Part shown: one piece after another, positions 17,179-42,053 of the stretch
How positions within the stretch are numbered: the first letter of the stretch is position 1
Layout of the letters: each line of letters opens with the position of its first letter
Assembly (NCBI GenBank): GCA_913043225.1
Contig: CAJWLU010000006.1
Location: forward strand, 45,465-109,464
Source of the DNA: an uncultured Acidobacteriota bacterium
Lineage (GTDB): Bacteria > Acidobacteriota > Vicinamibacteria > Vicinamibacterales > UBA8438
Reading direction: 5' to 3'
Length of the DNA stretch: 64,000 bases
Translations under genes and position numbers: made by a program
Notes under the pieces: model-generated
What the model was told of the DNA's origin: nothing
What the model saw: only the letters and a program-made list of their open reading frames with translations
The model's database searches: none

Positions 17179-18210
17179 ATGAGCAAGTGGCGCACGTCGA
17201 CCAGTGTCGTGGTCTTTACGTTGGCAATCGTGGTCGCGGGTCCGGTTCTCGCGCAGGAGGCATGGACTCTGCCGCGCACGGCAGACGGCGATCCCGAGAT
17301 CGGTGGGGTCTGGGACTTCCGTACGCTTACCCCGCTGCAGCGTCCTGGAGATGCGGCTGAGCAGCTGACTGATGAAGAGGCGGCGGCCATCGAGGAGCGT
17401 TCCCGCCAGGCGGCGATTGAGGCCGACCGGCCCAGCGAAATACGCACCGAACCACTGCCGGTCGGTGCGCCGGTGGGCGGCTATAACAACTTCTGGTTCG
17501 ACCGTGGTGCGGGTGTCGTCGATGACAACCGTACGTCGCTTATCGTTTCCCCGGCCAGCGGGCGCGTGCCGGCTCTGCAGCCGGGCGTCGAAATGGTACG
17601 GCTCTCGCTAGGCGAGGACATTCCGGGCGGACAGCCGGTGCGCGTCCGTGCGGCCGGCATCGGGGCCTCTCACTGGAAAGACCGCGGCCTGGCTGAGCGG
17701 TGCTTGCTGGGCTTTAATTCAGGGCCTCCCATCGTGCCGGCCGGTTACAACCAGAACTTTCAGGTGTTTCAGACCAAGGACCACGTGGTCATTCTGCACG
17801 AGATGGTGCACGACTCGCGGATCGTGCCGCTCGACCGGAGGCCGCACCTGCCCGAGAGCATTCGGCAGTGGATGGGTGATTCCCGGGGCTACTGGGACGG
17901 CGATACGCTGGTGGTGGAGTCGAAGAATTTTACGGACCAAACCTCGAGCTTCAGCCCGTCGGTGACCATGGCGGCCGGCGACGGTACCACGCTGAACCTG
18001 ACTGAACGGTTTACGCGGGTGGCAGACGATACGCTGCTGTATGAGTTTACCGTCGACGACCCACAGACGTTTACTGAGCCGATCGTGGCCCAGATTCCTG
18101 TGAAACGCGGCGATATGATGTTCGAGTACGCGTGTCACGAAGGCAATTATGGGCTGGATAACATCCTGCGCGGCGCCCGCGAAGCCGAGCTCGCGGCTGC
18201 CGGCCAGTAG
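17179..18210 (+). CDS. Exported protein of unknown function, EYACHEGNYG-motif family, paralog P2
   Basis: ORF 17149-18210. ATG 17179 is preceded by AAGGAGAGG. Signal peptide (VVVFTLAIVVAGPVLAQ). Same blocks as P1/P3/P4 and ends ...FEYACHEGNYGLDNILRGAREAELAAAGQ. Confidence 0.85.
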   Translation: MSKWRTSTSVVVFTLAIVVAGPVLAQEAWTLPRTADGDPEIGGVWDFRTLTPLQRPGDAAEQLTDEEAAAIEERSRQAAIEADRPSEIRTEPLPVGAPVGGYNNFWFDRGAGVVDDNRTSLIVSPASGRVPALQPGVEMVRLSLGEDIPGGQPVRVRAAGIGASHWKDRGLAERCLLGFNSGPPIVPAGYNQNFQVFQTKDHVVILHEMVHDSRIVPLDRRPHLPESIRQWMGDSRGYWDGDTLVVESKNFTDQTSSFSPSVTMAAGDGTTLNLTERFTRVADDTLLYEFTVDDPQTFTEPIVAQIPVKRGDMMFEYACHEGNYGLDNILRGAREAELAAAGQ

Positions 18211-23429: not shown

Positions 23430-25178
23430 TCAGGGCAGTCGAAAGACGAAGAGCGTGTTACCGCGCGGTGGCTGCCTTATCTCGGGCGTTAGGCCACGGT
23501 GATTGACCCCGCCGCCGGTGGCGATGGCGACAAATTGGGCCCCGTCGTGCTCGTAGGAGACGGGGAAGCCGCCAGCGCTGGAATTCAGGATCTGCTCCCA
23601 GAGCACGTCGCCGGTCGAGACATCGAAGGCGCGGAACCGGCGCGCGTCATCGGTCACGAATACGAGCCCGCCTCCGGTGCTCAAGACGGAACCCCCGATG
23701 CCGGCGCGCTGGCGATGCACCCACCTGGGCTCGCCGGTCGCCAGATCCATCGCGGTGAACATGCCGACCTGTCCATTGGCCTCGGGCGCGATGGAGCGGT
23801 TGACGCGCGCAGATCCGTGGTGTCGTCCTGGTCGGTTGCGGAACTCGTTCAGCGTGAGGTCCATGCACACGTCATTGGTCGGGGCGAAGAGCGTGTTGCT
23901 GGCGGGGTTGTACGCGGTGGCCTGCCAGTTGATGCCGCCGATGAGGCTGGGACAGACAAAGACGGGCTCGCCCACCTGAGGGAACTTGAGCGCCTGGTTA
24001 AGGAGAACCCGCCGGCTCTCCGCGTCGATGTCCTCGACGACGTTCTGAGTATTGGTTGGCTGCGCCCAGAGAAACGCGCCGGTCGCGGCGTCGAGCGCCC
24101 ACACGATGCCGGTCTTGCCAGGAATCCCAGTGACGATCTTTCGACGATTCCCCGAGGTGATGCCGTTATTTCGCCACTCAACGTCGCCCGGTGAGACCTC
24201 GGTTTCGACCACGAGCCGGGCGAACGGATGGTCGAGGTCCCACTCGTCGTTCGGTATGTGCTGGAAGTACCAGGCAATCTCGCCCGTGTCGGCGTTTAGC
24301 GCCAGCGTCGAGTTGGTGTACAGCACGTCGCCGTCGCCGGTGCCGCGCTGCACCGAACCCCAAGGGATGGGGACGCCCACCCCGGTGTAGATCAGGTTCA
24401 GTTCTGGGTCGTAGCTCGGTGAGTTCCAGGGCGATCCGCCGCGGCGGTCCTCCTCGGGCACGTCGCCCCAGGTGTCGTAACCGAACTCGCCAGGGCCTGG
24501 AATGGTGTAGGTGCGCCAGTGTTCCTCGCCGGTGTCCGCGTTATGGGCGGAGACCCAGCAGCGGGTGTTGAGGTGATAGCAGCCGGACATGCCGATGACC
24601 ACCTGTCCCTTGATCACCATTGGTCCGCCGGAATAGTGCTGGCCGATCGTCCAGTCGCCGACTTGGACTTCCCATTCGACCTCGCCGCTCCGGGCGTTGA
24701 GCGCGAGTAGATGTGCGTCGTGGGTGCCGAGGAAGATCTTGTCGTCGTACAGCGCGCCGCTCCGGTTGGCGCAGGCCAGATTGGCCGGATGTTCGACTCG
24801 CTCCCGTCGGTATTCCCAGATGCGCGTGCCGTCGCGTAGGTCCAGCGCCTCGACGTAGTCGCAGGCTTGTACCAGAAACATCATCCCGTCGTGCACGAGG
24901 GGGGTGGTCTCTTGCAGCCCTTCGGCCATGGTCCAGGCCCACGCCAGCCGCAACGTGCCTACGTTCGAGGTGTTGATCTGAGTGAGCGGGCTGTGCCCCC
25001 AGTGGCCGTAGCTGCGGCGCCACATCAGCCAATCGCTGTCAGGCGGGTCGACCAGTTCCGCGTCGCTCACCGGCGTGTAGGCGAGGGCGATTGGCGATAA
25101 CTCCTCGGTTTGGGCTACGCCCGGGGTAGCGGTGGCCCCGACGAGCAGAACGCTGGTGACGAGAACTGCTGTTCGCAT
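23430..25178 (-). CDS. PQQ-dependent dehydrogenase, PQQ-2
   Basis: ORF 23430-25319(-). ATG 25178 gives signal peptide MRTAVLVTSVLLVGATATPGVAQ. Propeller repeats (ALDLRDGTRIWEY, ALNARSGEVEWEV, AHNADTGEEHW, ALNADTGEIAWYFQ, ALDAATGAFLW, AMDLATGEPRW, AFDVSTGDVLW). NDEWDLDHP active-site region. Paralogous to PQQ-7. Confidence 0.88.
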   Translation of the reverse strand: MRTAVLVTSVLLVGATATPGVAQTEELSPIALAYTPVSDAELVDPPDSDWLMWRRSYGHWGHSPLTQINTSNVGTLRLAWAWTMAEGLQETTPLVHDGMMFLVQACDYVEALDLRDGTRIWEYRRERVEHPANLACANRSGALYDDKIFLGTHDAHLLALNARSGEVEWEVQVGDWTIGQHYSGGPMVIKGQVVIGMSGCYHLNTRCWVSAHNADTGEEHWRTYTIPGPGEFGYDTWGDVPEEDRRGGSPWNSPSYDPELNLIYTGVGVPIPWGSVQRGTGDGDVLYTNSTLALNADTGEIAWYFQHIPNDEWDLDHPFARLVVETEVSPGDVEWRNNGITSGNRRKIVTGIPGKTGIVWALDAATGAFLWAQPTNTQNVVEDIDAESRRVLLNQALKFPQVGEPVFVCPSLIGGINWQATAYNPASNTLFAPTNDVCMDLTLNEFRNRPGRHHGSARVNRSIAPEANGQVGMFTAMDLATGEPRWVHRQRAGIGGSVLSTGGGLVFVTDDARRFRAFDVSTGDVLWEQILNSSAGGFPVSYEHDGAQFVAIATGGGVNHRGLTPEIRQPPRGNTLFVFRLP

Positions 25179-25309
25179 GGCATGAGGATACACCGGGTGG
25201 CGGCGACGGGAAGTGCTATCAGCGGCCGCTGTTGTCTCGGCGTGCGTACCGTGTCGGGCAGTCGGACGACCAGCTCGAGCTATTCCGCAAACGAGGCGCC
25301 GTGGGGACG

Positions 25310-25660
25310 CTAAACCCACTCAGGCGGAGGCGTGATCTCCTCGGACGGCGGCCGGCCAGCGGCTGGTCGACCCGAGCCTTCGAGTCGGCTGATCGCGCGG
25401 ACGCTCATGTCCTGGTCGCACTGAATCTGACACGACAGACGCACCCCGCTGATATTCCGCTCTTCGAACACCGCTTTTTCGGCCGTGGTCATCTTGCTGG
25501 GTTCGCCGTCGATGAATTCCACGCGACAGGTGGTGCACCGGGAGTTGCCGCCGCAGGCGTGCAGCACGTCCACTTCTGCATCCTGCTTCAGCGCCAGGAC
25601 GAGACGCTTGCCATCGGCTACGTTGACCGTGCCGTATCCTTCCACCGTGAGCTTGGGCAT
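25310..25660 (-). CDS. 2Fe-2S ferredoxin (fer2 domain), cytoplasmic
   Basis: 116-aa ORF with no signal peptide. Cys ligand pattern HACGGNSRCTTCRV ... LSCQ. Confidence 0.8.
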   Translation of the reverse strand: MPKLTVEGYGTVNVADGKRLVLALKQDAEVDVLHACGGNSRCTTCRVEFIDGEPSKMTTAEKAVFEERNISGVRLSCQIQCDQDMSVRAISRLEGSGRPAAGRPPSEEITPPPEWV

Positions 25661-26525: not shown

Positions 26526-28610
26526 CTAGTAACCCCCGCTGGCCGGTGCAGCCTCTGGGACGGCTACCGCGGCGATACCGTCAGCCAGTTGGACGATGAT
26601 GTACTGGTGCCCGTCGTGCACCCAGCTCGACATGCCGTAGCGCGTCACGCCCGGAATCTCGATGCCGCCGACCCGCTCGCCCGTCCGCTTGTCATAGGCG
26701 TAGAGCATCGGGGTGTTGTCGGCGCTCAAGCCCCCGGCAACCAGGAGCGTAGGTGTGACCACCATGGCCGCGTTCCCGCCACGGCCGCGGTTGATCTCAA
26801 TGTTCTCGAGCCCCTGGACCAGCGGGTGGTTCCGGATGGTGTCCTGCTGAGCCTCTGACGCATCGGAGGAGGGTACCGCCCACAGGTGGTCACCGGTGTT
26901 GAGGTCGATGGCCGTGATGCGACCCACTGGACCCTTCCAGATAGGAAGTCCGTCGATGGTGAACTGCTCGATGCTCCCGCGGACCGTCGTGGCCACCGCC
27001 GCGAAGTCGGTGTGCGTCGTGCCAGATTGTTCGAGCTCATCGAGTGGTGAGTCGACGCCAGGCATCACTTGAAGCCTGAAGCAACTGCTCTGCGAGCTGA
27101 CGAAGATCACCCCGTTCACCGGATCGGCGACTGCGGGGCCGGTGATGTTGGTGCCGCCGCCGCCGCCCGGACAGTTCCACGCTGGGCCAGCTGGATCGTC
27201 GGTGTGGGTGGGGGGATCGAACAGCCCGTTAAAGAGGTTGTTCTCCTCGGCCACCTGGCGCGCCATCTCCTTGATCTCGGGCGTGTAGTCGATCAGGTGA
27301 TCCTCGGTTCGTCCCTGCAGGTCATAGGGGGCAGGCTTGGTGGGGAAGGGCTGGGTTTCAGACAGCTTCTCTCCAGGAATTCTCGAGCTGGGAACCGGTC
27401 GCTCCTCGATCGGCCAGATCGGCTCGCCAGTCTCCCGGTCGAGAGCGTAGAGGAACGCCTGTTTGGTGGCCTGAAAGAGCCCCTTGATCTCACGACCGTC
27501 GACGGTTACGTCCATCAAGACCGGTGCGGTGGGAGTGTCGTAGTTCCAGATGTCGTGGTGCACCATCTGATAATGCCACTCCCGTTCACCGGTATCGGCA
27601 TTCAGCGCGATGATGCTCGTGCTGAATAGGTTGTCGCCAGGGTGATGTCCCCCGTAGTAGTCGATGGTGGGGCCGTTCGTTACGATGTAGACCAGCCCGA
27701 GCTCGGGGTCGGCTGCCATTGGAGCCCACGACGAGACGTCGCCGATCCACTGCCAAGCGTCGTTTTCCCAGGTATCGTGCCCGAACTCGCCGGGCCGCGG
27801 GACTACGTTGAACTTCCACTTGTGCTCGCCCGTCCGCACGTCGTAGCCGAGGATGTCTCCGGGGACGTTCTCGACGCGGGTCTGAAGGTAGCCCTGCTCG
27901 GCCGAGTTGCCCACGACGATGGTGTCGTTGACGACGATCGGCGGCGACGAAGCGGTGATGTAGCCGATTTCGATCGGGATGCCCTGGCCGGCGTCATAGG
28001 GGCGGTCCATGGCGAGCCACGGCCCCCAGTCGGCGATAAGGTCCTCGACCAAGTCGACCGTGCCGGTCTCGTTGAAGCCGTCGATCGGCACAGGACGACC
28101 CCAGTTCTCGAGCGGTTTTCCGGTCTCGACATCGAGGGCGTGGAGGAAGAACGCCGGGGAACTAATGAACACCACCCCGCGGCCATCGATCTCGGTGTAG
28201 GCGATGCCCTTGCCGTACCCCTTCCGCATGGAATAGTCGTGGCGAAATGTGTTGGGCTCGCGAAAGCTCCAGATCAGGTCCCCATTCTTCGGATCGATCG
28301 CCACAACGTGACGCCGGTCACCGGCGACCGTGATGAGCTTGCCGTCGATGTAGGATGGCGTAGCGCGCGGGGTGCTGGGGCCGAAGCTGGTCGCGCTCCA
28401 CTCCCACACGACCTCGAGGTCGTTGAAGTTGTCGGCCGTGATCTCGGTGGCCGGGGTGTATCGGGTATGCCAGGCGTCGCCGCCCAGATAGGTCCAGTTG
28501 CCATTCTCGGTGCCAGGCCCTTGAGCCAGCGCCGCACCGGGGAGGGCAAGTGCGCAGGCTAGCGCCGCCGCCAGCGCGAGCGGGGGCCTGCGTCGTTCGG
28601 TGGCTCTCAT
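26526..28610 (-). CDS. PQQ-dependent dehydrogenase (glucose-dehydrogenase-like, soluble), PQQ-3
   Basis: ORF 26526-28715(-). ATG 28610 gives MRATERRRPPLALAAALACALALPGAALAQ. Propeller repeats (AIDPKNGDLIW, ALDVETGKPL, GYDVRTGEHKW, ALNADTGEREWHYQ, ALDRETGEPIW, AIDLNTGDHLW, AYDKRTGERV). HHDIWNYDTP region. Confidence 0.88.
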   Translation of the reverse strand: MRATERRRPPLALAAALACALALPGAALAQGPGTENGNWTYLGGDAWHTRYTPATEITADNFNDLEVVWEWSATSFGPSTPRATPSYIDGKLITVAGDRRHVVAIDPKNGDLIWSFREPNTFRHDYSMRKGYGKGIAYTEIDGRGVVFISSPAFFLHALDVETGKPLENWGRPVPIDGFNETGTVDLVEDLIADWGPWLAMDRPYDAGQGIPIEIGYITASSPPIVVNDTIVVGNSAEQGYLQTRVENVPGDILGYDVRTGEHKWKFNVVPRPGEFGHDTWENDAWQWIGDVSSWAPMAADPELGLVYIVTNGPTIDYYGGHHPGDNLFSTSIIALNADTGEREWHYQMVHHDIWNYDTPTAPVLMDVTVDGREIKGLFQATKQAFLYALDRETGEPIWPIEERPVPSSRIPGEKLSETQPFPTKPAPYDLQGRTEDHLIDYTPEIKEMARQVAEENNLFNGLFDPPTHTDDPAGPAWNCPGGGGGTNITGPAVADPVNGVIFVSSQSSCFRLQVMPGVDSPLDELEQSGTTHTDFAAVATTVRGSIEQFTIDGLPIWKGPVGRITAIDLNTGDHLWAVPSSDASEAQQDTIRNHPLVQGLENIEINRGRGGNAAMVVTPTLLVAGGLSADNTPMLYAYDKRTGERVGGIEIPGVTRYGMSSWVHDGHQYIIVQLADGIAAVAVPEAAPASGGY

Positions 28611-28690
28611 ACGCCTTCTGCTCCTGGTAGTGTGTTCGGAACGCTCCGTCGACCATGTCATGGTAACAGCCAGCAGGGGCAGATGAGAAG

Positions 28691-29476
28691 GTGAGCACAG
28701 ACCCGCACCGCCCACACGACGCGTACTCCCGCGTGAACTACCGCCGTCTGTTTGCCTGGGAGCAGCGCATTACTCGCGAGGCGCCGCTCTTGCTAAGGCT
28801 GCTAGAGCAGGCACCAGACCGCTCGGTCCTGGACCTGGGCTGCGGCACTGGGGAGCATGTGGCGTTCTTTGCGGAGCAGGGAGCGCGTGCTGTGGGTCTC
28901 GATCTCTCGGACTCGATGATCTCGGTGGCACGTGGCTACGAGGAGGCGGGAAAGGGCCGCTTCGTGTTGGGCGACGCGACGGAAGCGCAGGCCCTGCTTG
29001 TCGACGATCCACCGTTTGGACTGGCGATTTGCCTGGGCAACATGTTGCCGCACCTCGAGGACGCGGATCTGGGCCGGTTCCTGCAGGCCACGCGGGCAAA
29101 GCTACTGCCTGGGGGCACAGTGATGATCCAGTTGCTCAACTATGAGCCGGTGCTCGACGGTGGGCGACGGGCGCTCCCGGTAAACGTCCGCTCGGGTGAC
29201 GACGGCAAGGAGATCGTGTTCGTGCGGGTGATGTCGAGGGGCGCGCCGGGTCGCGTACTGTTCTTCCCCTCGACGTTGGAGCTCGACCCTAAAGCGAAAG
29301 AGCCGCTCAGTGTGAGGTCGAGTAGACGGCTTGACCTTCGCGCCTGGACGAGGGATGACCTCGAGCCGGTACTAGACGAAGTTGGCTTCGACGCTAGCTT
29401 CGCCGGTGAGATAACGGGCGCGGAATTCGAGCCGAACCGTTCTGCGGACCTGGTCGTGATGGCTCGGCGTCGTTGA
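28691..29476 (+). CDS. Class I SAM-dependent methyltransferase
   Basis: 261-aa ORF (GTG start). Motif I VLDLGCGTGEH followed by AVGLDLS. Confidence 0.85.
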   Translation: MSTDPHRPHDAYSRVNYRRLFAWEQRITREAPLLLRLLEQAPDRSVLDLGCGTGEHVAFFAEQGARAVGLDLSDSMISVARGYEEAGKGRFVLGDATEAQALLVDDPPFGLAICLGNMLPHLEDADLGRFLQATRAKLLPGGTVMIQLLNYEPVLDGGRRALPVNVRSGDDGKEIVFVRVMSRGAPGRVLFFPSTLELDPKAKEPLSVRSSRRLDLRAWTRDDLEPVLDEVGFDASFAGEITGAEFEPNRSADLVVMARRR

Positions 29477-32920: not shown

Positions 32921-33251
32921 GCTGCGACCTTCAATAACGCCTCAGGTGCTGCTATGTGAGTCGACTGCCGCTCGCCACTCGCACGGTTCGGAGTCAAAGC
33001 GAGACGCGATCTCACCGATCTGGCCGCTATAGTAGCGGGAAGGTGAGCCTCTCAGGATGGCAGGAGAAGGGAGACCTCTGGGTTGTTTCGAGCTGCCAAA
33101 CCTGCTCTGCAAGCGCGGTCTCGCGGTTGCCGGCTGGAACTCAGCCACAGTGAGATTGTCGCATGGTGGCCCGGATACCGCTTGTCAGGGGGCGAGGGGA
33201 CGTCTAGTGTGGGGCATACAGGAATCAGCTCGGTCCGGAAGGAGCCTGAAG

Positions 33252-34241
33252 ATGCGTCAGCGAAGTCTTGCCGCAGTGTTCGTCCTGAGTGCGATCGTGA
33301 CACCGATGCTGATGTCGGCGCAGGACGCCGGGGGTGTACCGATGCGGACCGTGGACGGACATCCTGACATTTCCGGGATGTTTACCTTTCGGACCCTGAC
33401 GCCGTTCGAGCGTCCGGCGCAATTCGAGGGGCTAGAAACTTTAGGTGTCGAAGAAGCCGCTGCGTTCGAAGCATCGGAACGGACTCGTCAGAACCGCGAC
33501 CTATTCGATCCGGAGAGGGGCGCTCGCACCGCCGGGTACGCGCCACGGTCGGAAGGCGGGGTGCTCTCCTATAACGAGTTCTGGTACGAGCGCGGGGTCG
33601 AGTTAACGTCGGACAAGCGGACGTCGCTCATCGTTGACCCGCCGGACGGGCGGCGCCCTCCGAGGACTGCGGCCGGGCAGGCGGCGTTGGCTCGCCGCCG
33701 TGCGCACACCGAGGTCCACCGCTACGACTCGTATGAAAACCGTACGATGTCCGACCGGTGCCTCGGCACGTCGCTGGCGGGCCCCCCGATGCGATCGGGC
33801 GCCTACAACAACAACGCGATGATCTTCCAGACGGCTGACTATGTAGTCATCCAGAACGAGATGGCGAATCAGTCGCGCATCATCCCACTCGACGATCGGG
33901 TGAGGCCCCCATTTGCTCAGCTGAAGGGTCTGTCTCGCGGGCGGTGGGAAGGGGAGACTCTGGTTGTCGAGACGACGAACTTTCGGGCAGATAGTTCGGT
34001 GACTGGCCAGAACTTGCACTTGGTCGAGCGGTTGACCCGGCTCGACGCTGACACCGTGACCTACGAATACACCGTGACCGACCCCACGGTGTTTACGGCG
34101 CCCTATACCGTCATGATGCCGCTTCGACGGACCGACGGTCCGATCTTCGAATACGCCTGCCACGAGGGGAATATTGGGATGTACGGCATTCTGGCCGGAG
34201 CGCGTAATCTAGAGCGGCTTGGCCGCGAATTGCGCCCTTAA
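33252..34241 (+). CDS. Exported protein of unknown function, EYACHEGNYG-motif family, paralog P3
   Basis: ORF 33057-34241. ATG 33252 is preceded by GGAAGGAG. Signal peptide (AAVFVLSAIVTPMLMSAQ). Family blocks are present and it ends ..FEYACHEGNIGMYGILAGARNLERLGRELRP. Confidence 0.85.
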   Translation: MRQRSLAAVFVLSAIVTPMLMSAQDAGGVPMRTVDGHPDISGMFTFRTLTPFERPAQFEGLETLGVEEAAAFEASERTRQNRDLFDPERGARTAGYAPRSEGGVLSYNEFWYERGVELTSDKRTSLIVDPPDGRRPPRTAAGQAALARRRAHTEVHRYDSYENRTMSDRCLGTSLAGPPMRSGAYNNNAMIFQTADYVVIQNEMANQSRIIPLDDRVRPPFAQLKGLSRGRWEGETLVVETTNFRADSSVTGQNLHLVERLTRLDADTVTYEYTVTDPTVFTAPYTVMMPLRRTDGPIFEYACHEGNIGMYGILAGARNLERLGRELRP

Positions 34242-34288: not shown

Positions 34289-36352
34289 ATGCTGCCTCGT
34301 TCCCGCTACGTCGTCTTGGCCACATTGCTCGCGCTTGGTCTGGCCGGGGGCGTCGGCCTCCGGTCACAAGGGCCAACCGGCGGGTATCCCCGCAGCGACT
34401 GGCCTTTGGCCGGCGGAGACCGGTCGAGCACTCGGTATTCGGCCCTCACCGAGATCTCCACCGAGACGATCGAGCGTCTCGGAGGTGCCTGGGTGACGCG
34501 GTTTGAGGGGGGCGCGTCTTCACGTGCGACTCCGGTTGTTCAGGACGGCGTGCTGTACCTCACTGGCGGCGCGAACGTGTACGCGCTCGATGCGAGGAAT
34601 GGCGACCAGATCTGGCGCTGGCAGGCCCAGGACGGCAGCGGCATGGTGCCGTCGTGGCAGGGCGTCGGCTTGAGCGATGACCTGGTCTTCGTAGGGCTGC
34701 GGAGTGGCGAGGTGATGGCCCTTCGTAGGGATACGGGGGAGCAGGTCTGGAACGAACGGGTCGGTAGTGATCCGCATCAGGATGGCGAAGCTGTGACGTC
34801 GGCCCCGATGTATGCCCTGGGGCGAGTGTTCGTTGGGTTGGCCAACGGAGACACTGGGGGGCAGGGTCGGATCATTGCGCTCGACGCCGAAACTGGTCAG
34901 ACCCAGTGGACGTTCTTCATCGTTCCGCGCCCAGGCGAGTTCGGGCACGAGACCTGGCCGCAAGACTCGGACTCGTGGGAACTGGGTGGCGGTGGCGTGT
35001 GGCTGTTGGGTACCGTCGATCCGGAGCTGGGTCTGGTCTATTTCTCCACTGGTAACCCGGCCCCGATGTTCGGGGGTGAGATCCGCGAGGGCGACAACCT
35101 CTTTACCGCGTCGGTGCTGGCGTTGGACGTGGAGACGGGCGAACGGCGGTGGCATTACCAGGTGGTACGGCATGATGTCTGGGACGCAGACATCGCAACC
35201 CCGTTGCTGCTCTACGACCACGACACCGGGACCGGCGCACCGCGCAAGGCCGTGGCCGCCATGCGTGCCGATGGGATCCTGTTTCTTTTCGATCGAGAGA
35301 CCGGGGAGCCGTTGATCGAGATCGAGGAGCGCGAAGTCCCACAGGACGAGTACCAGAAGACGGCGCCAACCCAGCCGTTTCCGGTGGGCGTTGAGAGTAT
35401 TCTTCCCGACTGTTCGTACTGGCGCGACCGAGTGCCACCGCCCTTCGAACTCAGCTGCAGCAGCTACACCCCGCCGATGGTGAACGAACACACTATCGTG
35501 GCGCCGAATGTGCCTATTCCGCGGGTGCGGGTTACCCCGATGTCATTCAGTCCGCAGACCGGCTACATCTATGCTCAAGGCCGGGCCGTGGTCGGGCGCG
35601 CACGCCGGTTCGAAGATCCATTCCACTGGCGGCTCGACGACAACGAACTAACCCTGCCGGATCCGGTCGGGGTGCTGGCGGCGGTCGACACGCGCACCCA
35701 GGAAATTGTCTGGAAGCACGAAATGCCGGCGTCGTGGCTGGGCACGAGTGGTCCGCTGACCACGGCAGGAGGGTTGATGTTCAGAGCCTCGGCCGGCGGA
35801 CAGGTGGAGGCCTACGATGCTGCGAGTGGCGATCGGCTCTGGACCTTCCGGACGAGCCCGGAAGGGGCTATCGTGCGGCCGGGTCCGGCGAGCACCTATG
35901 AGGTCGACGACACGCAGTATCTGTTGATTCCGATGGGCGCTGAGCTGTGGGCGTTCGCGCTCGATGGCGAGATTCAGGCAAGGGGCGAGCCGATACTGGA
36001 TCCGTTCAACGGATATGAGCGGGCGCAGCCGCAGCCCACCCGGACCCGGCGGATCGAAACCGCGACGCTGGTCGAGGGAGTGCGAGGGATGGTGGGCGGC
36101 ACCCGCTATGGTTTCGACGAGCACCGGTTTAACCCAGTGCGCGCGCTTGTAACCCAGGGCACCCGCGTCCAGTTCATCAACAACGGCGAAGAGGCGCACA
36201 CCATCGCGGCGCGGGACGGGAGCTGGTCGACCGATGCCATCGAGAGCGCCGAGTGGGGCTATGCCACCTTCGACGAGGTAGGGACCTTCCTGTATCACTG
36301 CGCCGACCACCCGTGGGCGATTGGGCAGATCACGGTCGAGGCCGCAGAGTAG
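34289..36352 (+). CDS. PQQ-dependent dehydrogenase fused to C-terminal amicyanin-like cupredoxin domain, PQQ-4
   Basis: 687-aa ORF 47 nt after P3, with a signal peptide. Propeller repeats (ALDARNGDQIWRWQ, ALRRDTGEQVW, ALDAETGQTQW, ALDVETGERRWHYQ, LFDRETGEPL, AVDTRTQEIVW, AYDAASGDRLW). HDVWDADIATP region. The last ~100 aa read GTRVQFINNGEEAHTIAARDG...GTFLYHCADHPWAIGQITVE, a cupredoxin His...Cys-x2-His pattern. Confidence 0.9.
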   Translation: MLPRSRYVVLATLLALGLAGGVGLRSQGPTGGYPRSDWPLAGGDRSSTRYSALTEISTETIERLGGAWVTRFEGGASSRATPVVQDGVLYLTGGANVYALDARNGDQIWRWQAQDGSGMVPSWQGVGLSDDLVFVGLRSGEVMALRRDTGEQVWNERVGSDPHQDGEAVTSAPMYALGRVFVGLANGDTGGQGRIIALDAETGQTQWTFFIVPRPGEFGHETWPQDSDSWELGGGGVWLLGTVDPELGLVYFSTGNPAPMFGGEIREGDNLFTASVLALDVETGERRWHYQVVRHDVWDADIATPLLLYDHDTGTGAPRKAVAAMRADGILFLFDRETGEPLIEIEEREVPQDEYQKTAPTQPFPVGVESILPDCSYWRDRVPPPFELSCSSYTPPMVNEHTIVAPNVPIPRVRVTPMSFSPQTGYIYAQGRAVVGRARRFEDPFHWRLDDNELTLPDPVGVLAAVDTRTQEIVWKHEMPASWLGTSGPLTTAGGLMFRASAGGQVEAYDAASGDRLWTFRTSPEGAIVRPGPASTYEVDDTQYLLIPMGAELWAFALDGEIQARGEPILDPFNGYERAQPQPTRTRRIETATLVEGVRGMVGGTRYGFDEHRFNPVRALVTQGTRVQFINNGEEAHTIAARDGSWSTDAIESAEWGYATFDEVGTFLYHCADHPWAIGQITVEAAE

Positions 36353-37064: not shown

Positions 37065-38963
37065 ATGAAGCACAGTGCGGTCAGCATCATGCGGCATTTC
37101 CTGGCGGGTGTCGTACTCGTGACCCTCGCTGTATCAACGGTGTTGGCTCAGGACGACTGGCGGCATTGGGGGCGGGATTTGGGTAATCAACGGCATTCGC
37201 CGTTGACTCAGATCGACGCCGATAACGTCGATCAGCTTGAGCTAGCTTGGCGCTACGAGATGCCGCGGCCCGGCACGCCATCGCGGCCGGCGCAGTCGAC
37301 ACCGTTGATGGTCGACGGGGTCTTGTATCTCTCGTTCCCCTACTACCGGGTGGTCGCGGTGGTGCCAGAAACGGGCCAAGAACTGTGGGACTACACCGCG
37401 CCCGGACAGTGGGACTCGGCCGAGCACCAGCAGCACTGGACCGGAGGATCGATGCGGGGTCTGGCCTACTGGGATGGGCAGAATGGTATTGCGCCGCAGA
37501 TAGTGTTCGGAACCGAGGAAGGGGAGCTGATCTCACTGAACGCCGCCACTGGTATTCCCGGCGCCCACTTCGGGAACGACGGCTATGTAGATCTGAAGAC
37601 CGAGGACGTCATGAACGGCTTTCCGAATATGCACTACGGGATCGGTTCGGGCGTAGCCATCTACAAGCACCTGGTCTTCACCCCGGTTCACAACGCCGAC
37701 GAGACCGGCTCGAAGGGGCCAGCCGGCGACGTGCGCGCCTGGGATCTTCGGACTGGCGAACTGGTGTGGACGTTCCACACCGTGCCGCACCCCGGAGAGT
37801 TCGGCAACGACACCTGGCTGGATGGTTCGTGGGAGCGCGTCAGCGGAGCGAACACGTGGAGCTTCTTTACTATCGACGAGGAGCGCGGCATTCTCTATAT
37901 GCCTCTGGGGTCGGCGCTTAACGATTTCTATGGCATGGATCGGCCCGGCGACAACCTGTTCGCGAACTCCATCGTGGCAGTCGATGCGATGACAGGTGAA
38001 CGGCTGTGGCACTTCCAGGCCGTCCACCATGACCTGTGGGATCTCGACATGCCGGTGCCGCCGATCCTGTTCGATGTCGAACGGGATGGCGAGGCCATTC
38101 CTGCGGTCGGCGTGATGACGAAGTTTCCGGTGCTCTTCATCTTCAACCGAGTGACCGGCGAGCCAATCTACGAGATTGAGGAGCGTCCCGTCCCGGCGGG
38201 TAACATGCAGGGAGAGTATTACTCGCCGACCCAGCCCTTCCCGGTGAAGCCTCCGGTCTTCGGGCGGATCGATTTCACGATGGACGACATCGCCACGGTC
38301 ACCCCGGAGCACACCGCGGCGTGCCGCGAGCGACTGATGGCGTATGACGGTGGACGTAATCGGGGAGCCTACACGCCGCCATCGCTCGAGGGCGCGCTGG
38401 TGTTTCCGTCGACGGGCGGAGGAACCGAGTTTACCGGTGGGACGTTTGATCCGGAACTGGGCTACTACATCATCAATTATGCCGACACCGGCCACATCAG
38501 CACGCTGGAGCCGGTGGGTGTGAACTCGGATCGGCGAGGGTACGTGGGCCCGCCTGAGTCACGTCGGCGGTACTGGCACATCGTTGACCGGTTGAGCGTC
38601 GACGGCTGGCCCTGCTGGCAGCCACCCTGGTCGCAACTGGTGGCCGTCGATGTCAACAGCGGTGAGATCGCCTGGAAAATTCCGTTTGGTACCGTTGAGG
38701 GGGCGCCGCCCGGACTGCTCACTGGGGCTCCGAACTCCCAGAAGGGCGGCCCCACGTCGACCGCCGCAGGGATTTTCTTCATCGGCGGCGCCTCGGACCG
38801 GATGTTTCGCGCCTATGAAACCAAGACCGGGCGCGAGTTGTGGAGTGTCGAGACCGAGCAGATGATCAGCGGGTCGAATCCGATTGTCTACATGGGGGAG
38901 GACGGCAAGCAGTATGTGGCCGTGGCTGCGGGCACGACATTGTTGGCCTATGCCCTGCCGTGA
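37065..38963 (+). CDS. PQQ-dependent dehydrogenase (glucose/quinate-dehydrogenase-like, soluble), PQQ-5
   Basis: 632-aa ORF with a signal peptide. Propeller repeats (VVPETGQELWDY, SLNAATGIP, AWDLRTGELVW, AVDAMTGERLWHFQ, IFNRVTGEPIY, AVDVNSGEIAW, AYETKTGRELW). HHDLWDLDMP region. Confidence 0.88.
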   Translation: MKHSAVSIMRHFLAGVVLVTLAVSTVLAQDDWRHWGRDLGNQRHSPLTQIDADNVDQLELAWRYEMPRPGTPSRPAQSTPLMVDGVLYLSFPYYRVVAVVPETGQELWDYTAPGQWDSAEHQQHWTGGSMRGLAYWDGQNGIAPQIVFGTEEGELISLNAATGIPGAHFGNDGYVDLKTEDVMNGFPNMHYGIGSGVAIYKHLVFTPVHNADETGSKGPAGDVRAWDLRTGELVWTFHTVPHPGEFGNDTWLDGSWERVSGANTWSFFTIDEERGILYMPLGSALNDFYGMDRPGDNLFANSIVAVDAMTGERLWHFQAVHHDLWDLDMPVPPILFDVERDGEAIPAVGVMTKFPVLFIFNRVTGEPIYEIEERPVPAGNMQGEYYSPTQPFPVKPPVFGRIDFTMDDIATVTPEHTAACRERLMAYDGGRNRGAYTPPSLEGALVFPSTGGGTEFTGGTFDPELGYYIINYADTGHISTLEPVGVNSDRRGYVGPPESRRRYWHIVDRLSVDGWPCWQPPWSQLVAVDVNSGEIAWKIPFGTVEGAPPGLLTGAPNSQKGGPTSTAAGIFFIGGASDRMFRAYETKTGRELWSVETEQMISGSNPIVYMGEDGKQYVAVAAGTTLLAYALP

Positions 38964-40005: not shown

Positions 40006-41199
40006 ATGACCGGTTCATCGATTGGCCGTCTGTCATTGACTGCCCTGGCTGGCGTGTTCATCGCCGTGTCGGCGAGTGCACAGGCAGTGAAGAAGCTCGA
40101 CTCGTACGACGGCGTCGAAGTGCGACTGCTGCAAAGCAACAATGCAGGCACCGTCCAGCACATTATCGACCCCGAGATCAACGAGGTGGTCGGCATCATT
40201 CACGGCTGTCCGAATCCGCACAACGTCACGCTAGGCCCTGACAGCAAGCACTACTACTGCGCGAACGAACTCGAAGAGACGGTCGACGTGTTCGATACGA
40301 AGACCCTCGACCTGGTCACCCAGATTCCGCTGTCGGCACGGCCGAACAAGGTGGCGATCAATAAGAGGCATCGGAAGGCCTATGTGGCCATCGCCCGACG
40401 CTCGGCGAATCCTGGCCCCGGTGTCACGGTGGACCCGAACGGCCGCTTTCCATCGTTGGTGGACGTGATCGACATCGACACCCACGCGCTGGTCAAAAGC
40501 ATCGAAGTGTTCAGCGTCGTCCACAACGTGTTCGTCACGCCCGATGAGAATCACGTGGTGGCAGGCCTTCGGGGTTCGGTGGAGTCCGGGCAGCCCACTA
40601 TTCAGGTAATCGACCCAGTCACCGACACTGTGGTGCGCGGTCTTGAGCTGACCGGCTACGAGCAGTACGGCCGAACGCATCACGAGGTGCGGCCGATGGC
40701 ATTCCTCGCCAACGAGGACGGCTCGACCAAGTGGCTGTTCGCGCAGGCGACCGCCATCAATCGAATCTGGGTACTCGACTGGGAGACCGGCGAGAATGTC
40801 GACTTCCTGGTCCCGCCCGCGCTGCCGCTGTGGGAGAAGAACGCCGACGGCATCCAGACCGGTGACATGCACGGACTCGAGGTGCTGCCGGACAAGTCGG
40901 CTGTCTGGGCCTCGAGCCGGCTCGACAGTCGGATCTATGGGTGGAGCTTGCCCGACTTGAGCTTCATCGGGAGCGTGATCGTGGGACCGAGTGCAAACTG
41001 GATGACGGCCACACCAGACAGCAAGTACATGTATGTGGCGGTGTCGGGCGCAGACCACACACTCGCCATCGACCTCGCGAAGCAGCAGATCGTTGGCAAG
41101 ATCAAGGCTGGCGCGCGTCCCGCACGAATCGCTACAGCAGTACTGCCGCCGGATCGGGTGAACCCCCGCGGCACGGGCATGGCGGAGGAGAACGAATGA
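40006..41199 (+). CDS. YVTN-type beta-propeller protein, exported
   Basis: ORF 39946-41199. ATG 40006 is preceded by ACGGAGG. Signal peptide (LTALAGVFIAVSASAQA). Repeats VDVFDTKTLDLVTQIPLSARPNKVAIN, VDVIDIDTHALV, IQVIDPVTDTVV, LAIDLAKQQIV. Confidence 0.7.
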   Translation: MTGSSIGRLSLTALAGVFIAVSASAQAVKKLDSYDGVEVRLLQSNNAGTVQHIIDPEINEVVGIIHGCPNPHNVTLGPDSKHYYCANELEETVDVFDTKTLDLVTQIPLSARPNKVAINKRHRKAYVAIARRSANPGPGVTVDPNGRFPSLVDVIDIDTHALVKSIEVFSVVHNVFVTPDENHVVAGLRGSVESGQPTIQVIDPVTDTVVRGLELTGYEQYGRTHHEVRPMAFLANEDGSTKWLFAQATAINRIWVLDWETGENVDFLVPPALPLWEKNADGIQTGDMHGLEVLPDKSAVWASSRLDSRIYGWSLPDLSFIGSVIVGPSANWMTATPDSKYMYVAVSGADHTLAIDLAKQQIVGKIKAGARPARIATAVLPPDRVNPRGTGMAEENE

Positions 41200-42053
41200 C
41201 GACCCGGCGGGCGGCACACTCCGTGACACGGGCCGGACTTGGTCTTGCGCTCGGGATGGCAGCGGTGGGAGCCAGCCTCGTCGCGCGGCCGGCCGGGGCC
41301 CAGAACTTTCCGGTCTCCGGTGATGTAGACACCTACCGCGAGACGATAGAGGCTGTCTTCCTTGAGGACCGGGGCGGCACGACTGGGCGCTTTGCGTCGT
41401 GTGTGATGTGCCACACGTGGCAGACGAGTGTTCGCTTCAGTCTGGAGACACCGGAGAGCGCTGAGGGTTGGAGCAGCGAGCAGTCGCGGCGCAATCTTGA
41501 CGTGGTCGGCCAGCTGATTAACACGCAGGATCCGGCGAGCAGCCGGTTGCTTCTGAAGCCGCTCGCGAACGATGCGGGCGGTCTGCCGCACACGGGAGGC
41601 ACGTTCTGGGAGTCGACCGACGACCCGGAGTATGGACGGGTGCTTCAGTGGATCCAGAGCCTGCCGGATAATCAGTTTGTCCCCGAACCGGAGCCGGAAC
41701 TCGACTTCGAATTCTTCCGCGCCTGTGTGCAGCAGGTATTCGCGAACCCGCGTGATGGCCAGTTGCCGTGTAGCCGATGCCACTCTGGCGGTCTTATCGG
41801 ATTCGCGCCGGCGCCCGGACGTGGCGATACCTGGACTGAAGAGGAGGCACGGCGTGCCTACCAATTGATCACCCGCGTGATCACGCCGGGCAACCCGGAG
41901 CAGAGTCGGTTCATGATCAAGCCGCTCCATCCTGACGGCGGTGGCGCCTACACCCATAACGGGCCGCGGCGGTGGCAGAGTCAGGCCGACGCGGAATGGC
42001 AGATGCTGGCTAGCTGGGTGCGTGGCGAACGCTCCGGGTCAAGCTGTTCGTAG
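41196..42053 (+). CDS. Dihaem c-type cytochrome (Planctomycete-cytochrome-c-like repeats), exported
   Basis: ORF 40941-42053. ATG 41196 overlaps the upstream TGA (ATGA). Leader MTTRRAAHSVTRAGLGLALGMAAVGASLVARPAGAQ. Two CXXCH motifs (CVMCH, CSRCH). Each is followed by a similar S(S/Q)R(L/F)(L/M)(L/I)KPL...GG..H(T/N)GG-type segment. Confidence 0.75.
   Translation: MTTRRAAHSVTRAGLGLALGMAAVGASLVARPAGAQNFPVSGDVDTYRETIEAVFLEDRGGTTGRFASCVMCHTWQTSVRFSLETPESAEGWSSEQSRRNLDVVGQLINTQDPASSRLLLKPLANDAGGLPHTGGTFWESTDDPEYGRVLQWIQSLPDNQFVPEPEPELDFEFFRACVQQVFANPRDGQLPCSRCHSGGLIGFAPAPGRGDTWTEEEARRAYQLITRVITPGNPEQSRFMIKPLHPDGGGAYTHNGPRRWQSQADAEWQMLASWVRGERSGSSCS

What the first reader, a model, noticed from the sequence alone, without database searches (positions are those of the whole stretch)
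36050..36352. The fused cupredoxin modules keep His-Cys-His but have Ala or Thr where amicyanin has the axial Met
Seen:
- PQQ-4 ends YHC(36299-36301)ADH(36308-36310)PWA(36317-36319)IGQITVEAAE.
- PQQ-6 ends YVC(55786-55788)TEHPWT(55768-55770)IGQLVVE.
- Aligned without gaps to amicyanin C92-T-P-H95-P-F-M98-R-G-K-V-V-V-E (from memory), the Cys and His ligands and the upstream His (AHTI / THTI versus PHNV) are conserved.
- The Met98 position is Ala in PQQ-4 and Thr in PQQ-6.

Established: type-1 copper sites lacking the axial Met (Leu/Phe in fungal laccases and ceruloplasmin) are three-coordinate and usually have a raised redox potential.

Inference: these domains may be high-potential or otherwise atypical copper centres. 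Alternatively, a Gln three residues later (IGQ) could act as the axial ligand, as in stellacyanin-like sites.
Basis: partly seen in the sequence, partly recalled or inferred. Interest (0 to 1): 0.65.

Follow-up and report, generated by a model that had tools for sequence, protein, structure and literature searches.

The report
PQQ dehydrogenases with Met-less copper domain
Two periplasmic PQQ alcohol-dehydrogenase-like enzymes of a marine Acidobacterium carry a built-in amicyanin-like blue-copper domain. It sits where related enzymes carry a cytochrome c. Across the whole enzyme family its copper site keeps His-Cys-His but has a small Ala, Ser or Thr where the usual axial methionine would be.

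Summary
PQQ-4 (34289..36352 +) and PQQ-6 (55744..57771 -) each end in a ~90-residue cupredoxin domain. The AF2 model has pLDDT 90, and the closest structures are the Nmar_1354 pendant cupredoxin 9CCK, amicyanin and the purple cupredoxin 5FC9.

HMMER and a gap-free profile-profile alignment place Ala677 and Thr668 in the axial-Met column.

This is a family trait, not a quirk of these two genes:
- Among 233 PQQ-cupredoxin fusions, His/Cys/His are kept in about 95%.
- The axial column is Ala 120, Ser 73, Thr 30, Val 5, Met 3, despite at least 24 substitution events there.
- Related non-fused domains with the same C-x2-H loop mostly keep Met (461 of 593).

That residue is always Glu or Gln, but it lies three residues down a continuous beta-strand. 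It is also kept in relatives that have lost the copper ligands.

"High potential" cannot be claimed. Small or polar axial residues are known to admit water, which does not raise the potential.

Best reading: the domain is a built-in one-electron acceptor. It replaces the cytochrome c domain of type II quinohemoprotein alcohol dehydrogenases and has a trigonal or water-capped type-1 copper. I rate it a new variant of known kinds, uncharacterised experimentally.

The parts
34289..36352 (+). [quoted passage not shown]
   Evidence: ORF listed. Pfam PQQ PF01011 E 2.7e-81. Best PDB relatives are quinohemoprotein ADH 1kb0 and PedH 6zcv. Full-length AF2 model: pLDDT 88.8, pTM 0.89.
34289..34372 (+). 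Probable signal peptide of PQQ-4 (residues ~1-28, MLPRSRYVVLATLLALGLAGGVGLRSQG)
   Evidence: The sequence is. AF2 shows helix 5-19 followed by a low-confidence stretch 20-30. The role is inferred; no signal-peptide predictor was run.
35183..35191 (+). Asp299-Ala300-Asp301 of the HDVWDAD motif: the catalytic Asp plus the extra Asp at +2 that marks lanthanide-type PQQ dehydrogenases
   Evidence: It aligns to WDYT of 1kb0 and WDFD of PedH. D301 is invariant in the 59-sequence full-length alignment. The lanthanide reading is an inference.
36089..36340 (+). Cupredoxin domain of PQQ-4 (residues 601-684)
   Evidence: hmmsearch envelope 601-684. AF2 domain model pLDDT 89.9. Foldseek hits: 9cck_A rmsd 1.0 A, amicyanins, 5fc9. 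Pfam PF00127 reaches only 18.8 bits, below the 21.2 cut-off.
36197..36199 (+). His637, N-terminal copper ligand (AHTI)
   Evidence: It aligns with the ligand His of 9cck, 5fc9 and amicyanin. The column is invariant in A1 and is His in 225 of 233 fusions.
36299..36301 (+). Cys671, copper thiolate ligand
   Evidence: The column is invariant in A1 and is Cys in 222 of 233 fusions.
36308..36310 (+). His674, C-terminal copper ligand (C-x2-H, amicyanin-type short loop)
   Evidence: The column is invariant in A1 and is His in 225 of 233 fusions.
36317..36319 (+). Ala677 (codon GCG) in the axial-Met column
   Evidence: The column is Ala 120, Ser 73, Thr 30, Val 5, Met 3 among 233 fusions.
36326..36328 (+). 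Gln680, the Glu/Gln-only position three residues after the axial column
   Evidence: Glu 122, Gln 110, Val 1 among 233 fusions. It lies inside the continuous strand 674-684. It aligns with Thr of Met-type domains.
55744..57771 (-). [quoted passage not shown]
   Evidence: ORF listed. Pfam PQQ E 5.1e-81. P0121 is a 100% identical database entry.
55747..56013 (-). Cupredoxin domain of PQQ-6 (residues ~587-675)
   Evidence: hmmsearch E 8e-38 with the family profile and 2.4e-17 with the Met-type profile. NCBIfam amicyanin model 26.1 bits, far below the 110.2 cut-off.
55888..55890 (-). His628, N-terminal copper ligand (THTI)
55786..55788 (-). Cys662, copper thiolate ligand
55777..55779 (-). His665, C-terminal copper ligand
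55768..55770 (-). Thr668 (codon ACC) in the axial-Met column
   Evidence: The closest relatives of PQQ-6 carry Thr or Ser here.
55759..55761 (-). Gln671, Glu/Gln-only position

Best explanation
PQQ-4 and PQQ-6 are periplasmic quinoprotein dehydrogenases. The roughly 90-residue C-terminal cupredoxin is the enzyme's own one-electron acceptor. It occupies the position, and most likely does the job, of the cytochrome c domain of type II quinohemoprotein alcohol dehydrogenases.

Copper is held by His637/Cys671/His674 in PQQ-4 and by His628/Cys662/His665 in PQQ-6, on the shortest (amicyanin-type) C-x2-H ligand loop. The side chain in the axial column (Ala677 or Thr668) is too short to reach the metal. 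The site is therefore trigonal His2Cys, with either an empty axial pocket or, more likely, a water in it. That would make it a perturbed type-1 centre like amicyanin M98A or the Nitrosopumilus purple cupredoxin.

Proposed electron path: substrate to PQQ, then to Cu(II) in two one-electron steps, then to an external periplasmic carrier. In some relatives the last step goes to a further fused cytochrome c.

What is shown and what is inferred:
- Shown: domain identity, fold, ligand conservation, a small axial residue under selection, and the position of the domain in the architecture.
- Inferred: copper occupancy, axial water, direction of electron flow, redox potential, and the cofactor metal of the propeller.
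For: Fold and homology:
- AF2 domain model pLDDT 89.9.
- Foldseek top hits: 9cck_A (rmsd 1.0 A over 70 columns), amicyanins, 5fc9.
- phmmer finds the same proteins.
- hhalign against 80 Met-type domains gives probability 99.8% over 81 gap-free columns, with S/A/T opposite Met.

The site is under selection:
- His, Cys and His are three of eight invariant columns.
- They are kept in 225, 222 and 225 of 233 fusions that are only about 45% identical overall.
- Ligand losses tend to come together. Examples are both His to Arg in four sequences, and all three ligands lost in P0203.

The axial column is held small:
- At least 24 parsimony changes occur there on an NJ tree, yet 223 of 233 sequences carry Ala, Ser or Thr.
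- Non-fused relatives with the same loop carry Met in 461 of 593 cases.
- Near-identical Ala and Met forms coexist...YHCTEHPWAIGEITVEP versus ...YHCTEHPWMIGEITVEP, and 9 Met versus 61 Ala copies in Vicinamibacterales genomes. The scaffold is therefore a normal type-1 scaffold.

Precedent for copper binding:
- Amicyanin M98A was crystallised as the Cu(II) form (2idq).
- The 9CCK pendant domain, which also has H-T after the first His, is metalated (PMC11761707).

Electron-relay role:
- The propeller is closest to quinohemoprotein ADHs 1kb0, 1kv9 and 1yiq, whose cytochrome c domain lies at the same C-terminal position.
- PQQ-4 and PQQ-6 contain no CxxCH motif.
- Relatives with PQQ-cupredoxin-cytochrome c order exist: P0167, P0209, P0228, P0231.

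Axial water:
- Water in the axial position has been observed when the axial side chain does not coordinate or is small: M298L-SLAC, Ssl1 M295A/V/I, and the purple cupredoxin (PMC12109610).
Against: - No experiment or coordinate-level model shows copper, water or the geometry. The tools return no atomic coordinates, so the distance and orientation between the copper site and PQQ were not measured.
- The Pfam cupredoxin models score below their gathering thresholds.
- About 5% of fusions have lost one or more ligands, in at least 8 independent events. One tri-domain relative keeps the domain with no ligands at all. The domain can therefore persist without a copper site.
- No cytochrome c or free cupredoxin that could take the electrons lies next to either gene.
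- The propeller scores below the NCBIfam cut-offs. It partly resembles the 'acido-empty-quinoprotein' family, so PQQ occupancy is itself assumed.
- A pTM of 0.89 says little about domain docking, because the propeller dominates the score.
Confidence: 0.6

Rival explanations
1. Stellacyanin-like or nitrosocyanin-like site. The Gln or Glu three residues after the axial column (IGQ/IGE) supplies an oxygen ligand, so the copper is four-coordinate and low-potential rather than open.
For: - The position is Glu or Gln in 232 of 233 fusions. It switches between the two at least 15 times and takes almost nothing else.
- Related Met-type domains mostly have Thr there.
- The Glx therefore appears together with the loss of Met.
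Against: - In both AF2 models His674 to Glu684 is one continuous beta-strand. Residue +3 then points to the opposite face from the axial residue and lies about 10 A further from the copper end. This is an inference from secondary structure; no coordinates were available.
- The alignment to 9CCK (rmsd 1.0 A), amicyanin and Met-type profiles has no gaps, so there is no longer loop to bring the residue back.
- The Glx is retained in relatives with no copper ligands left: P0203 (Q/G/D), the RCR forms and the HSE forms.
- In stellacyanin the Gln sits in the Met column itself (established knowledge).
Confidence: 0.1
2. Vestigial or purely structural domain. The cupredoxin fold serves as a cap, spacer or docking module, and the His-Cys-His triad binds no redox-active copper in vivo.
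For: - At least 8 independent losses of ligands occur among 230 fusions.
- P0203 keeps the domain between the propeller and the cytochrome c with all ligands gone.
- Pfam scores are below threshold.
- The DGSW and Glx positions are conserved even more strongly than the ligands.
Against: - The ligands are kept in about 95% of sequences at about 45% overall identity, and they are among the eight invariant columns of the filtered alignment.
- Losses are clustered rather than scattered.
- The axial column is restricted to small residues when the triad is intact. It drifts to Val, Leu, Ile or Met in several ligand-less forms.
- Met-bearing sister sequences have a complete canonical type-1 site.
Confidence: 0.15
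3. Reactive open-site copper. The missing axial ligand leaves a coordination position for a small molecule such as O2, NO or nitrite. The domain would then be a catalytic or sensing centre fed by PQQ, rather than a simple relay.
For: - The closest natural precedent for a Met-less amicyanin-type loop is the purple cupredoxin 5fc9 (CSFHPWRVG), which has an axial water.
- Selection for a small residue persists across at least 24 substitution events.
- No dedicated acceptor gene lies next to the fusions.
Against: - No evidence of reactivity.
- Tri-domain relatives pass on to a cytochrome c, which fits a relay.
- Ala and Met forms interchange between near-identical sequences, which is hard to reconcile with an essential open site.
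Confidence: 0.08

Closest known systems
Type II quinohemoprotein alcohol dehydrogenases (C. testosteroni QH-ADH 1kb0; P. putida ADH IIB 1kv9 and ADH IIG 1yiq)
   Same: - They are the best sequence and fold relatives of the propeller.
- They are soluble periplasmic enzymes.
- A linker is followed by a small C-terminal one-electron redox domain on the same polypeptide.
   Different: - The appended domain here is a cupredoxin, not a cytochrome c. There is no CxxCH motif.
- The vicinal Cys-Cys of the active site is absent.
- The Thr at +2 from the catalytic Asp is replaced by Asp.
- The score is below the TIGR03075 cut-off.
Amicyanin (P. denitrificans and P. versutus) and its M98A mutant (PDB 2idq)
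   Same: - Same fold and the same shortest ligand loop, C-x2-H-x2-[axial].
- HP[FW] comes before the axial residue and x-G after it.
- M98A shows that such a site still binds Cu(II).
- Amicyanin also takes electrons from a quinoprotein (the TTQ enzyme methylamine dehydrogenase; established knowledge).
   Different: - Amicyanin is a free protein with Met98.
- It belongs to the mau system.
- The NCBIfam amicyanin model scores 17-26 bits against a cut-off of 110.
- Here Ala or Thr is natural and family-wide.
Purple cupredoxin of Nitrosopumilus maritimus (PDB 5fc9)
   Same: - A natural amicyanin-type loop (CSFHPWRVG) with no Met in the axial column.
- His2Cys ligation with an axial water, giving a perturbed type-1 site.
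   Different: - It is a stand-alone archaeal protein.
- The axial column holds Arg, not a small residue.
- About 24% identity.
Pendant C-terminal cupredoxin of the N. maritimus multicopper oxidase Nmar_1354 (PDB 9CCK)
   Same: - The closest solved structure: phmmer E 5.5e-10, rmsd 1.0 A, 31% identity.
- It is also a C-terminal T1 domain tethered by a linker to a redox enzyme.
- It has H-T after the first ligand and an HPW motif.
- It is metalated (PMC11761707).
   Different: - It keeps a weak axial Met (HPWMKG).
- Its host enzyme is a two-domain multicopper oxidase, not a quinoprotein.
Type-1 sites of fungal laccases, ceruloplasmin and Fet3p (axial Leu or Phe)
   Same: Trigonal His2Cys copper without an axial ligand (established knowledge; PMC12109610).
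   Different: - Those sites use bulky hydrophobic residues that exclude water and raise the potential.
- Here the residue is small or hydroxylated.
- The loop type and the protein context also differ.

Membership tests
Cupredoxin / type-1 blue copper domain (Pfam PF00127, PF13473) | Greek-key beta-sandwich cupredoxin fold | tested here: met
   AF2 pLDDT 89.9. Foldseek probability 1.00 to 9cck, amicyanin, 5fc9 and plastocyanins.
Cupredoxin / type-1 blue copper domain (Pfam PF00127, PF13473) | His ... Cys-xn-His ligand triad in the canonical columns | tested here: met
   H637/C671/H674 in PQQ-4 and H628/C662/H665 in PQQ-6.
Cupredoxin / type-1 blue copper domain (Pfam PF00127, PF13473) | Axial Met (or Gln) in the column two to four residues after the second His | tested here: not met
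   Ala677 and Thr668. The family column is Ala 120, Ser 73, Thr 30, Val 5, Met 3.
Cupredoxin / type-1 blue copper domain (Pfam PF00127, PF13473) | Score above the curated Pfam gathering threshold | tested here: not met
   PF00127 scores 18.8 and 18.6 bits against 21.2. PF13473 scores 17.3 and 14.8 bits against 27. Some homologues do pass in the precomputed annotation.
Cupredoxin / type-1 blue copper domain (Pfam PF00127, PF13473) | Binds one copper with intense Cys-to-Cu charge transfer | not testable with these tools
   Needs metal analysis, UV-vis and EPR.
Amicyanin (NCBIfam TIGR02657, equivalog) | Score above the equivalog cut-off, and partnership with TTQ methylamine dehydrogenase | tested here: not met
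   16.7 and 26.1 bits against a cut-off of 110.2. The domain is fused to a PQQ propeller, and no mau genes were seen among the window ORFs that were scanned.
Type II quinohemoprotein alcohol dehydrogenase | Eight-bladed PQQ propeller of the methanol/ethanol family | tested here: inconclusive
   Best PDB hits are 1kb0, 1kv9 and 1yiq, and PF01011 gives E 1e-81. But TIGR03075 scores 314 and 276 bits against a cut-off of 480.
Type II quinohemoprotein alcohol dehydrogenase | C-terminal cytochrome c domain with CxxCH | tested here: not met
   No CxxCH motif in either ORF. The C-terminal domain is a cupredoxin.
Type II quinohemoprotein alcohol dehydrogenase | Vicinal Cys-Cys disulfide over PQQ | tested here: not met
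   The 1kb0 segment 'fkgccdvvnrgv' aligns to 'sgmvpsw....qgv' in PQQ-4.
Stellacyanin-type (Gln-axial) type-1 site | Gln in the axial (Met) column of the ligand loop | tested here: not met
   The axial column is Ala or Thr. The Gln is three residues later on the strand, and it is Glu in 122 of 233 relatives.
Open-site 'purple' cupredoxin (N. maritimus, 5fc9) | His2Cys site on a C-x2-H loop with a non-ligating residue in the Met column | tested here: met
   Alignment CSFHPWRVG versus CADHPWAIG. Fold match with TM 0.70.
Open-site 'purple' cupredoxin (N. maritimus, 5fc9) | Axial water on copper and purple or perturbed type-1 spectra | not testable with these tools
   Needs a structure or spectroscopy.
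Lanthanide-dependent PQQ dehydrogenases (XoxF / PedH type) | Extra Asp two residues after the catalytic Asp (D-x-D) | tested here: met
   PQQ-4 has WDAD, aligned to PedH WDFD. D301 is invariant in the family alignment. PQQ-6 has WEHD instead.
Lanthanide-dependent PQQ dehydrogenases (XoxF / PedH type) | Lanthanide requirement for activity | not testable with these tools
   Needs enzymology.

The most novel reading that the evidence does not exclude
These proteins would define a large, uncharacterised class of 'quinocuproprotein' dehydrogenases, abundant in Vicinamibacterales and other environmental bacteria. In them, a naturally three-coordinate or water-capped type-1 copper is deliberately kept open by selection for Ala, Ser or Thr. 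That would tune the potential to PQQ, or let the copper react directly with a small molecule (O2, NO or nitrite), making the enzyme oxidase-like rather than dependent on a cytochrome chain.
Probability: 0.1. Interest if true: 0.8.

Novelty: new variant of a known kind. Interest (0 to 1): 0.55.

Why it matters
For copper bioinorganic chemistry, this family offers hundreds of natural versions of the classic axial-ligand mutagenesis experiment on the amicyanin scaffold. Ala, Ser, Thr, Val and Met all occur, sometimes on nearly identical backgrounds. Evolutionary evidence indicates that the small residue is selected.

For quinoprotein enzymology, it points to a third way of wiring PQQ to the respiratory chain, alongside free cytochrome c or azurin and a fused cytochrome c. 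Acidobacteria that encode many such enzymes use it.

Both points can be tested directly by expressing one protein or its 90-residue domain.

Tried and rejected
- **Gln as axial ligand.** Rejected as the leading reading. The grounds are strand position, the Glu/Gln alternation, and retention of the residue in ligand-less relatives.
- **'DGSW' after the first His as a special feature.** Rejected. It matches the generic 'dgsFDSG' consensus of Met-type relatives.
- **The upstream no-Pfam gene as an obligate partner.** Both fusions in the window are preceded by a paralogue (33057..34241 and 58011..59087). Only 26 of 68 related loci have one within the flanks, often on the other strand, so a strict partnership is not supported.
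- **Conserved neighbours that could accept electrons.** None found. No cytochrome c or free cupredoxin lies next to the fusions in the window or in three inspected contigs.
- **Profile search of 1.84 billion representatives.** The top 150 hits were all tandem-repeat cupredoxin proteins. That was useful as a Met-type contrast set but gave no single-domain relatives.
- **Literature.** Four searches for a described PQQ-cupredoxin fusion found none in the held library. The original 5fc9 paper could not be retrieved, and no amicyanin M98A paper was found.
- **Two regular-expression scans of the loci** failed because of wrong spacing and were redone.
- **Atomic geometry** of the copper site and the PQQ-to-Cu distance could not be examined, because the structure tools return no coordinates.
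Full report
**1. Observation**

The two ORFs exist as described.
- PQQ-4 is window 34289..36352 (+), 687 aa. PQQ-6 is 55744..57771 (-), 675 aa.
- The DNA at 36290..36352 translates to LYHCADHPWAIGQITVEAAE*. The DNA at 55797..55744 (minus strand) translates to EYVCTEHPWTIGQLVVE*.
- The amicyanin loop recalled from memory is also right. HMMER aligns YFCTPHPFMRGKVIVE (P. versutus amicyanin) and YHCTPHPFARGKVVVE (P. denitrificans M98A mutant, 2idq) to the PQQ-4 tail without gaps, and it aligns the upstream His as well.

**2. What the tails are**

Pfam sees only the PQQ propeller in the whole proteins. When the tails are scanned alone, PF00127 and PF13473 score just below threshold. Three lines of evidence establish a cupredoxin.
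- phmmer against PDB sequences finds the C-terminal cupredoxin of the N. maritimus multicopper oxidase 9CCK (E 5.5e-10), the purple cupredoxin 5fc9, and many amicyanins and plastocyanins.
- An AF2 model of the tail, built on 57 diverse homologous tails, has pLDDT 89.9 and the expected strands. These include a tight Cys77-x2-His80 hairpin that leads into a continuous last strand 80-90.
- Foldseek returns 9cck_A (rmsd 1.0 A over 70 columns), amicyanins including M98A, M98Q, M98L and M98K, and 5fc9.

A profile built from Met-type domains detects only these two ORFs in the six-frame translation of the window (E 5e-18 and 2e-17).

**3. Is Ala or Thr really in the axial column?**

Yes. I ran a profile-profile alignment (hhalign) of the 57-tail alignment against 80 Met-bearing domains taken from tandem-cupredoxin proteins.
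- It is gap-free over 81 columns, with probability 99.8%.
- The consensus C~dHPWsiGqliVe lies over C~~HP~M~GtV~V~.
- The small residue therefore corresponds to Met, and the Gln/Glu corresponds to Thr (Lys101 in amicyanin).
- The 'DGSW' after the first His is the family's version of the generic 'dgsFDSG' motif and is not special.

**4. It is a family trait under selection**

The 240 closest database relatives of the two proteins are 45-100% identical, almost all are about 680 aa, and 233 carry the domain.

| Column | Residues among 233 fusions |
|---|---|
| First His | His 225 |
| Cys | Cys 222 |
| Second His | His 225 |
| Axial | Ala 120, Ser 73, Thr 30, Val 5, Met 3, Leu 1, Ile 1 |
| Axial +3 | Glu 122, Gln 110, Val 1 |

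- On a neighbour-joining tree of the propeller parts, the axial column changes at least 24 times. It nevertheless stays within Ala, Ser or Thr in 223 of 233 sequences.
- The Glu/Gln position switches at least 15 times. Ligand loss occurs at least 8 times.
- In contrast, related domains outside the fusions that share the same [YFWHL]-x-C-x2-H motif carry Met in 461 of 593 cases.
- Met forms do occur inside the Ala clade on almost identical backgrounds (FVYHCTEHPWMIGEITVEP versus FVYHCTEHPWAIGEITVEP).
- In GTDB genomes of Vicinamibacterales, 9 of 70 intact copies carry Met and 61 carry Ala.
- Ligand losses are often joint. Four sequences have both His replaced by Arg. Others have Cys to Asp with both His kept, or Ser/Glu replacements. 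In several of these the axial residue becomes Val, Leu or Ile.

Together these patterns argue that the triad works as one metal site, and that the small axial residue is selected while that site is intact. These are counts on related sequences from one distance tree, so they are indicative and not a formal test.

**5. The Gln alternative**

The residue is strikingly constrained to Glu or Gln, which remains unexplained. It is unlikely to ligate copper, for four reasons.
- It is three residues down a continuous beta-strand from the axial column, in both the domain model and the full-length model. It therefore faces the other side and lies further from the copper end. This is an inference from secondary structure.
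- There is no loop insertion relative to 9CCK or amicyanin.
- In 9CCK the Met in the aligned column is the weak axial ligand (PMC11761707).
- The Glx persists in relatives that have lost the ligands, including P0203 (Gln/Gly/Asp in place of His/Cys/His).

**6. Context and likely mechanism**

*The propeller.*
- It is most similar to type II quinohemoprotein ADHs (1kb0, 1kv9, 1yiq) and to the lanthanide enzyme PedH.
- Those quinohemoproteins carry a cytochrome c domain after a linker at the C-terminus. Here a roughly 25-30-residue linker, which includes a low-confidence stretch, is followed by the cupredoxin. Neither ORF has a CxxCH motif.

*Architecture of relatives.*
- Relatives with the order PQQ-cupredoxin-cytochrome c exist. 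P0167, P0209, P0228 and P0231 have an intact triad and Val or Ser in the axial column.
- No solved structure has a PQQ-cupredoxin architecture.

*Cellular location.* Both proteins begin with a signal-peptide-like hydrophobic helix.

*Most economical reading.*
- The cupredoxin is the built-in acceptor of electrons from reduced PQQ and passes them on to a periplasmic carrier.
- Because Ala or Thr cannot reach the metal, the copper should be trigonal His2Cys with an empty or water-filled axial pocket.
- Amicyanin M98A still binds Cu(II) (2idq). Axial water is documented for M298L-SLAC, Ssl1 M295A/V/I and the purple cupredoxin. In M298L-SLAC the potential fell by 12 mV, to 354 mV, rather than rising (PMC12109610).

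**7. Caveats**

- Nothing here shows copper, water or electron flow.
- The structure tools gave no coordinates, so the PQQ-to-Cu geometry is unknown.
- The pTM of 0.89 is dominated by the propeller.
- The propeller lacks the vicinal Cys-Cys. It scores below the cut-offs of both TIGR03075 and the 'acido-empty-quinoprotein' model TIGR04528, so PQQ occupancy is assumed. Aquatic Vicinamibacteria are reported to encode the PQQ importer PqqU (PMC12124388).
- No acceptor gene lies next to the fusions.

**8. Origin**

The best genomic matches are all MAGs of Vicinamibacterales or Vicinamibacteraceae (Acidobacteriota). The top match is 91% identical and comes from a MAG labelled ERR599097_bin.40. Several genomes hold two or more fusions, sometimes in tandem.

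**9. Novelty**

- Type-1 sites without axial Met are known. So are redox domains fused to PQQ dehydrogenases, and pendant cupredoxins on other enzymes.
- Automated pipelines already label fragments of these proteins 'plastocyanin'. They label the full proteins 'alcohol dehydrogenase (cytochrome c)' or 'quinohemoprotein ethanol dehydrogenase'.
- I found no paper describing a PQQ-cupredoxin fusion or its Met-less site in the searchable library. One paper only hypothesises free blue copper proteins as acceptors for marine archaeal PQQ dehydrogenases (PMC7300363).
- I therefore rate this a new variant of known kinds. It is well supported at the sequence level, mechanistically plausible and experimentally untested.

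Noticed in passing
window 5..1048 (+), 17149..18210 (+), 33057..34241 (+), 58011..59087 (-): Four paralogues (38-42% identical) of a secreted protein of roughly 350-390 aa with no Pfam or NCBIfam hit, ending ...FEYACHEGN.G.Y.ILAGA. Two of them sit directly upstream of the two PQQ-cupredoxin genes. Copies also occur near fusion homologues elsewhere (five in locus L003), but only 26 of 68 related loci have one within the flanks.
   Followed up: partly
window 35171..35191 (PQQ-4 HDVWDAD); 56884..56904 (PQQ-6 HDMWEHD): PQQ-4 has the D-x-D motif typical of lanthanide-dependent PQQ dehydrogenases. The second Asp (D301) is invariant in 59 family members. PQQ-6 and most of the wider family have Glu in place of the catalytic Asp (W-E-x-D). 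The vicinal Cys-Cys of methanol/ethanol dehydrogenases is absent, and the Ca/Ln-binding Glu is replaced by Asp (ANGD).
   Followed up: partly
proteins P0167, P0203, P0209, P0228, P0231 (relatives, not in the window): Three-module relatives with the order PQQ propeller - cupredoxin - cytochrome c (CxxCH). Four keep His-Cys-His with Val or Ser in the axial column. P0203 has lost all three ligands (Gln/Gly/Asp) but keeps the domain and the IGQ motif.
   Followed up: partly
proteins P0166, P0169, P0183, P0185; P0224, P0230, P0233, P0237; P0206, P0220, P0227, P0239: Recurrent altered sites in the fused cupredoxin. One group has both His replaced by Arg with Cys kept. A second has Cys replaced by Asp with both His kept, reminiscent of the engineered type-2 azurin C112D. 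A third has Ser/Glu replacements with a His appearing one residue after the axial column.
   Followed up: no
window 36326..36328 and 55759..55761; the same column in the relatives: The residue three positions after the axial column is Glu or Gln in 232 of 233 fusions, with at least 15 switches between the two, whereas Met-type relatives mostly have Thr. The reason is unexplained. A cross-strand partner, such as the nearly invariant Arg of the 'P-x-R' strand, or the domain interface is possible.
   Followed up: partly
proteins P0241-P0390 (profile search hits): Proteins with 3 to 12 tandem copies of closely related cupredoxin domains, up to 3670 aa. Most repeats have C-x2-H-x2-M. P0248 has twelve YYC[IT]PHG[GAS]P.G repeats with Pro in the Met column.
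   Followed up: no
window 40941..42053 (+): An ORF with two CxxCH motifs (at about 41400 and 41769). It has only a weak sub-threshold hit to Cytochrome_CBB3 and is overlapped by a long ORF on the other strand. It could be a dihaem cytochrome about 5 kb downstream of PQQ-4 and PQQ-5.
   Followed up: partly
whole window: The window (64% G+C) is an island of secreted catabolic enzymes. Eight PQQ-propeller ORFs are present: 2735..4453, 23430..25319, 26526..28715, 34289..36352, 37065..38963, 55744..57771, 61279..63012 and the shorter 63028..63984. Also present are a soluble glucose/sorbosone dehydrogenase, two amidases, esterases, an epoxide hydrolase, a molybdopterin oxidoreductase and NHL/SGL propellers. 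Only two of the PQQ genes carry the cupredoxin.
   Followed up: partly
loci L016 and L017 (about 7900 and 10049), versus L014, L029, L033 and L034: Some Vicinamibacterales genomes carry two fusions within a few kb of each other. In L016 and L017 both copies have axial Met. In other genomes both have Ala. This is a natural Met/Ala comparison set.
   Followed up: no
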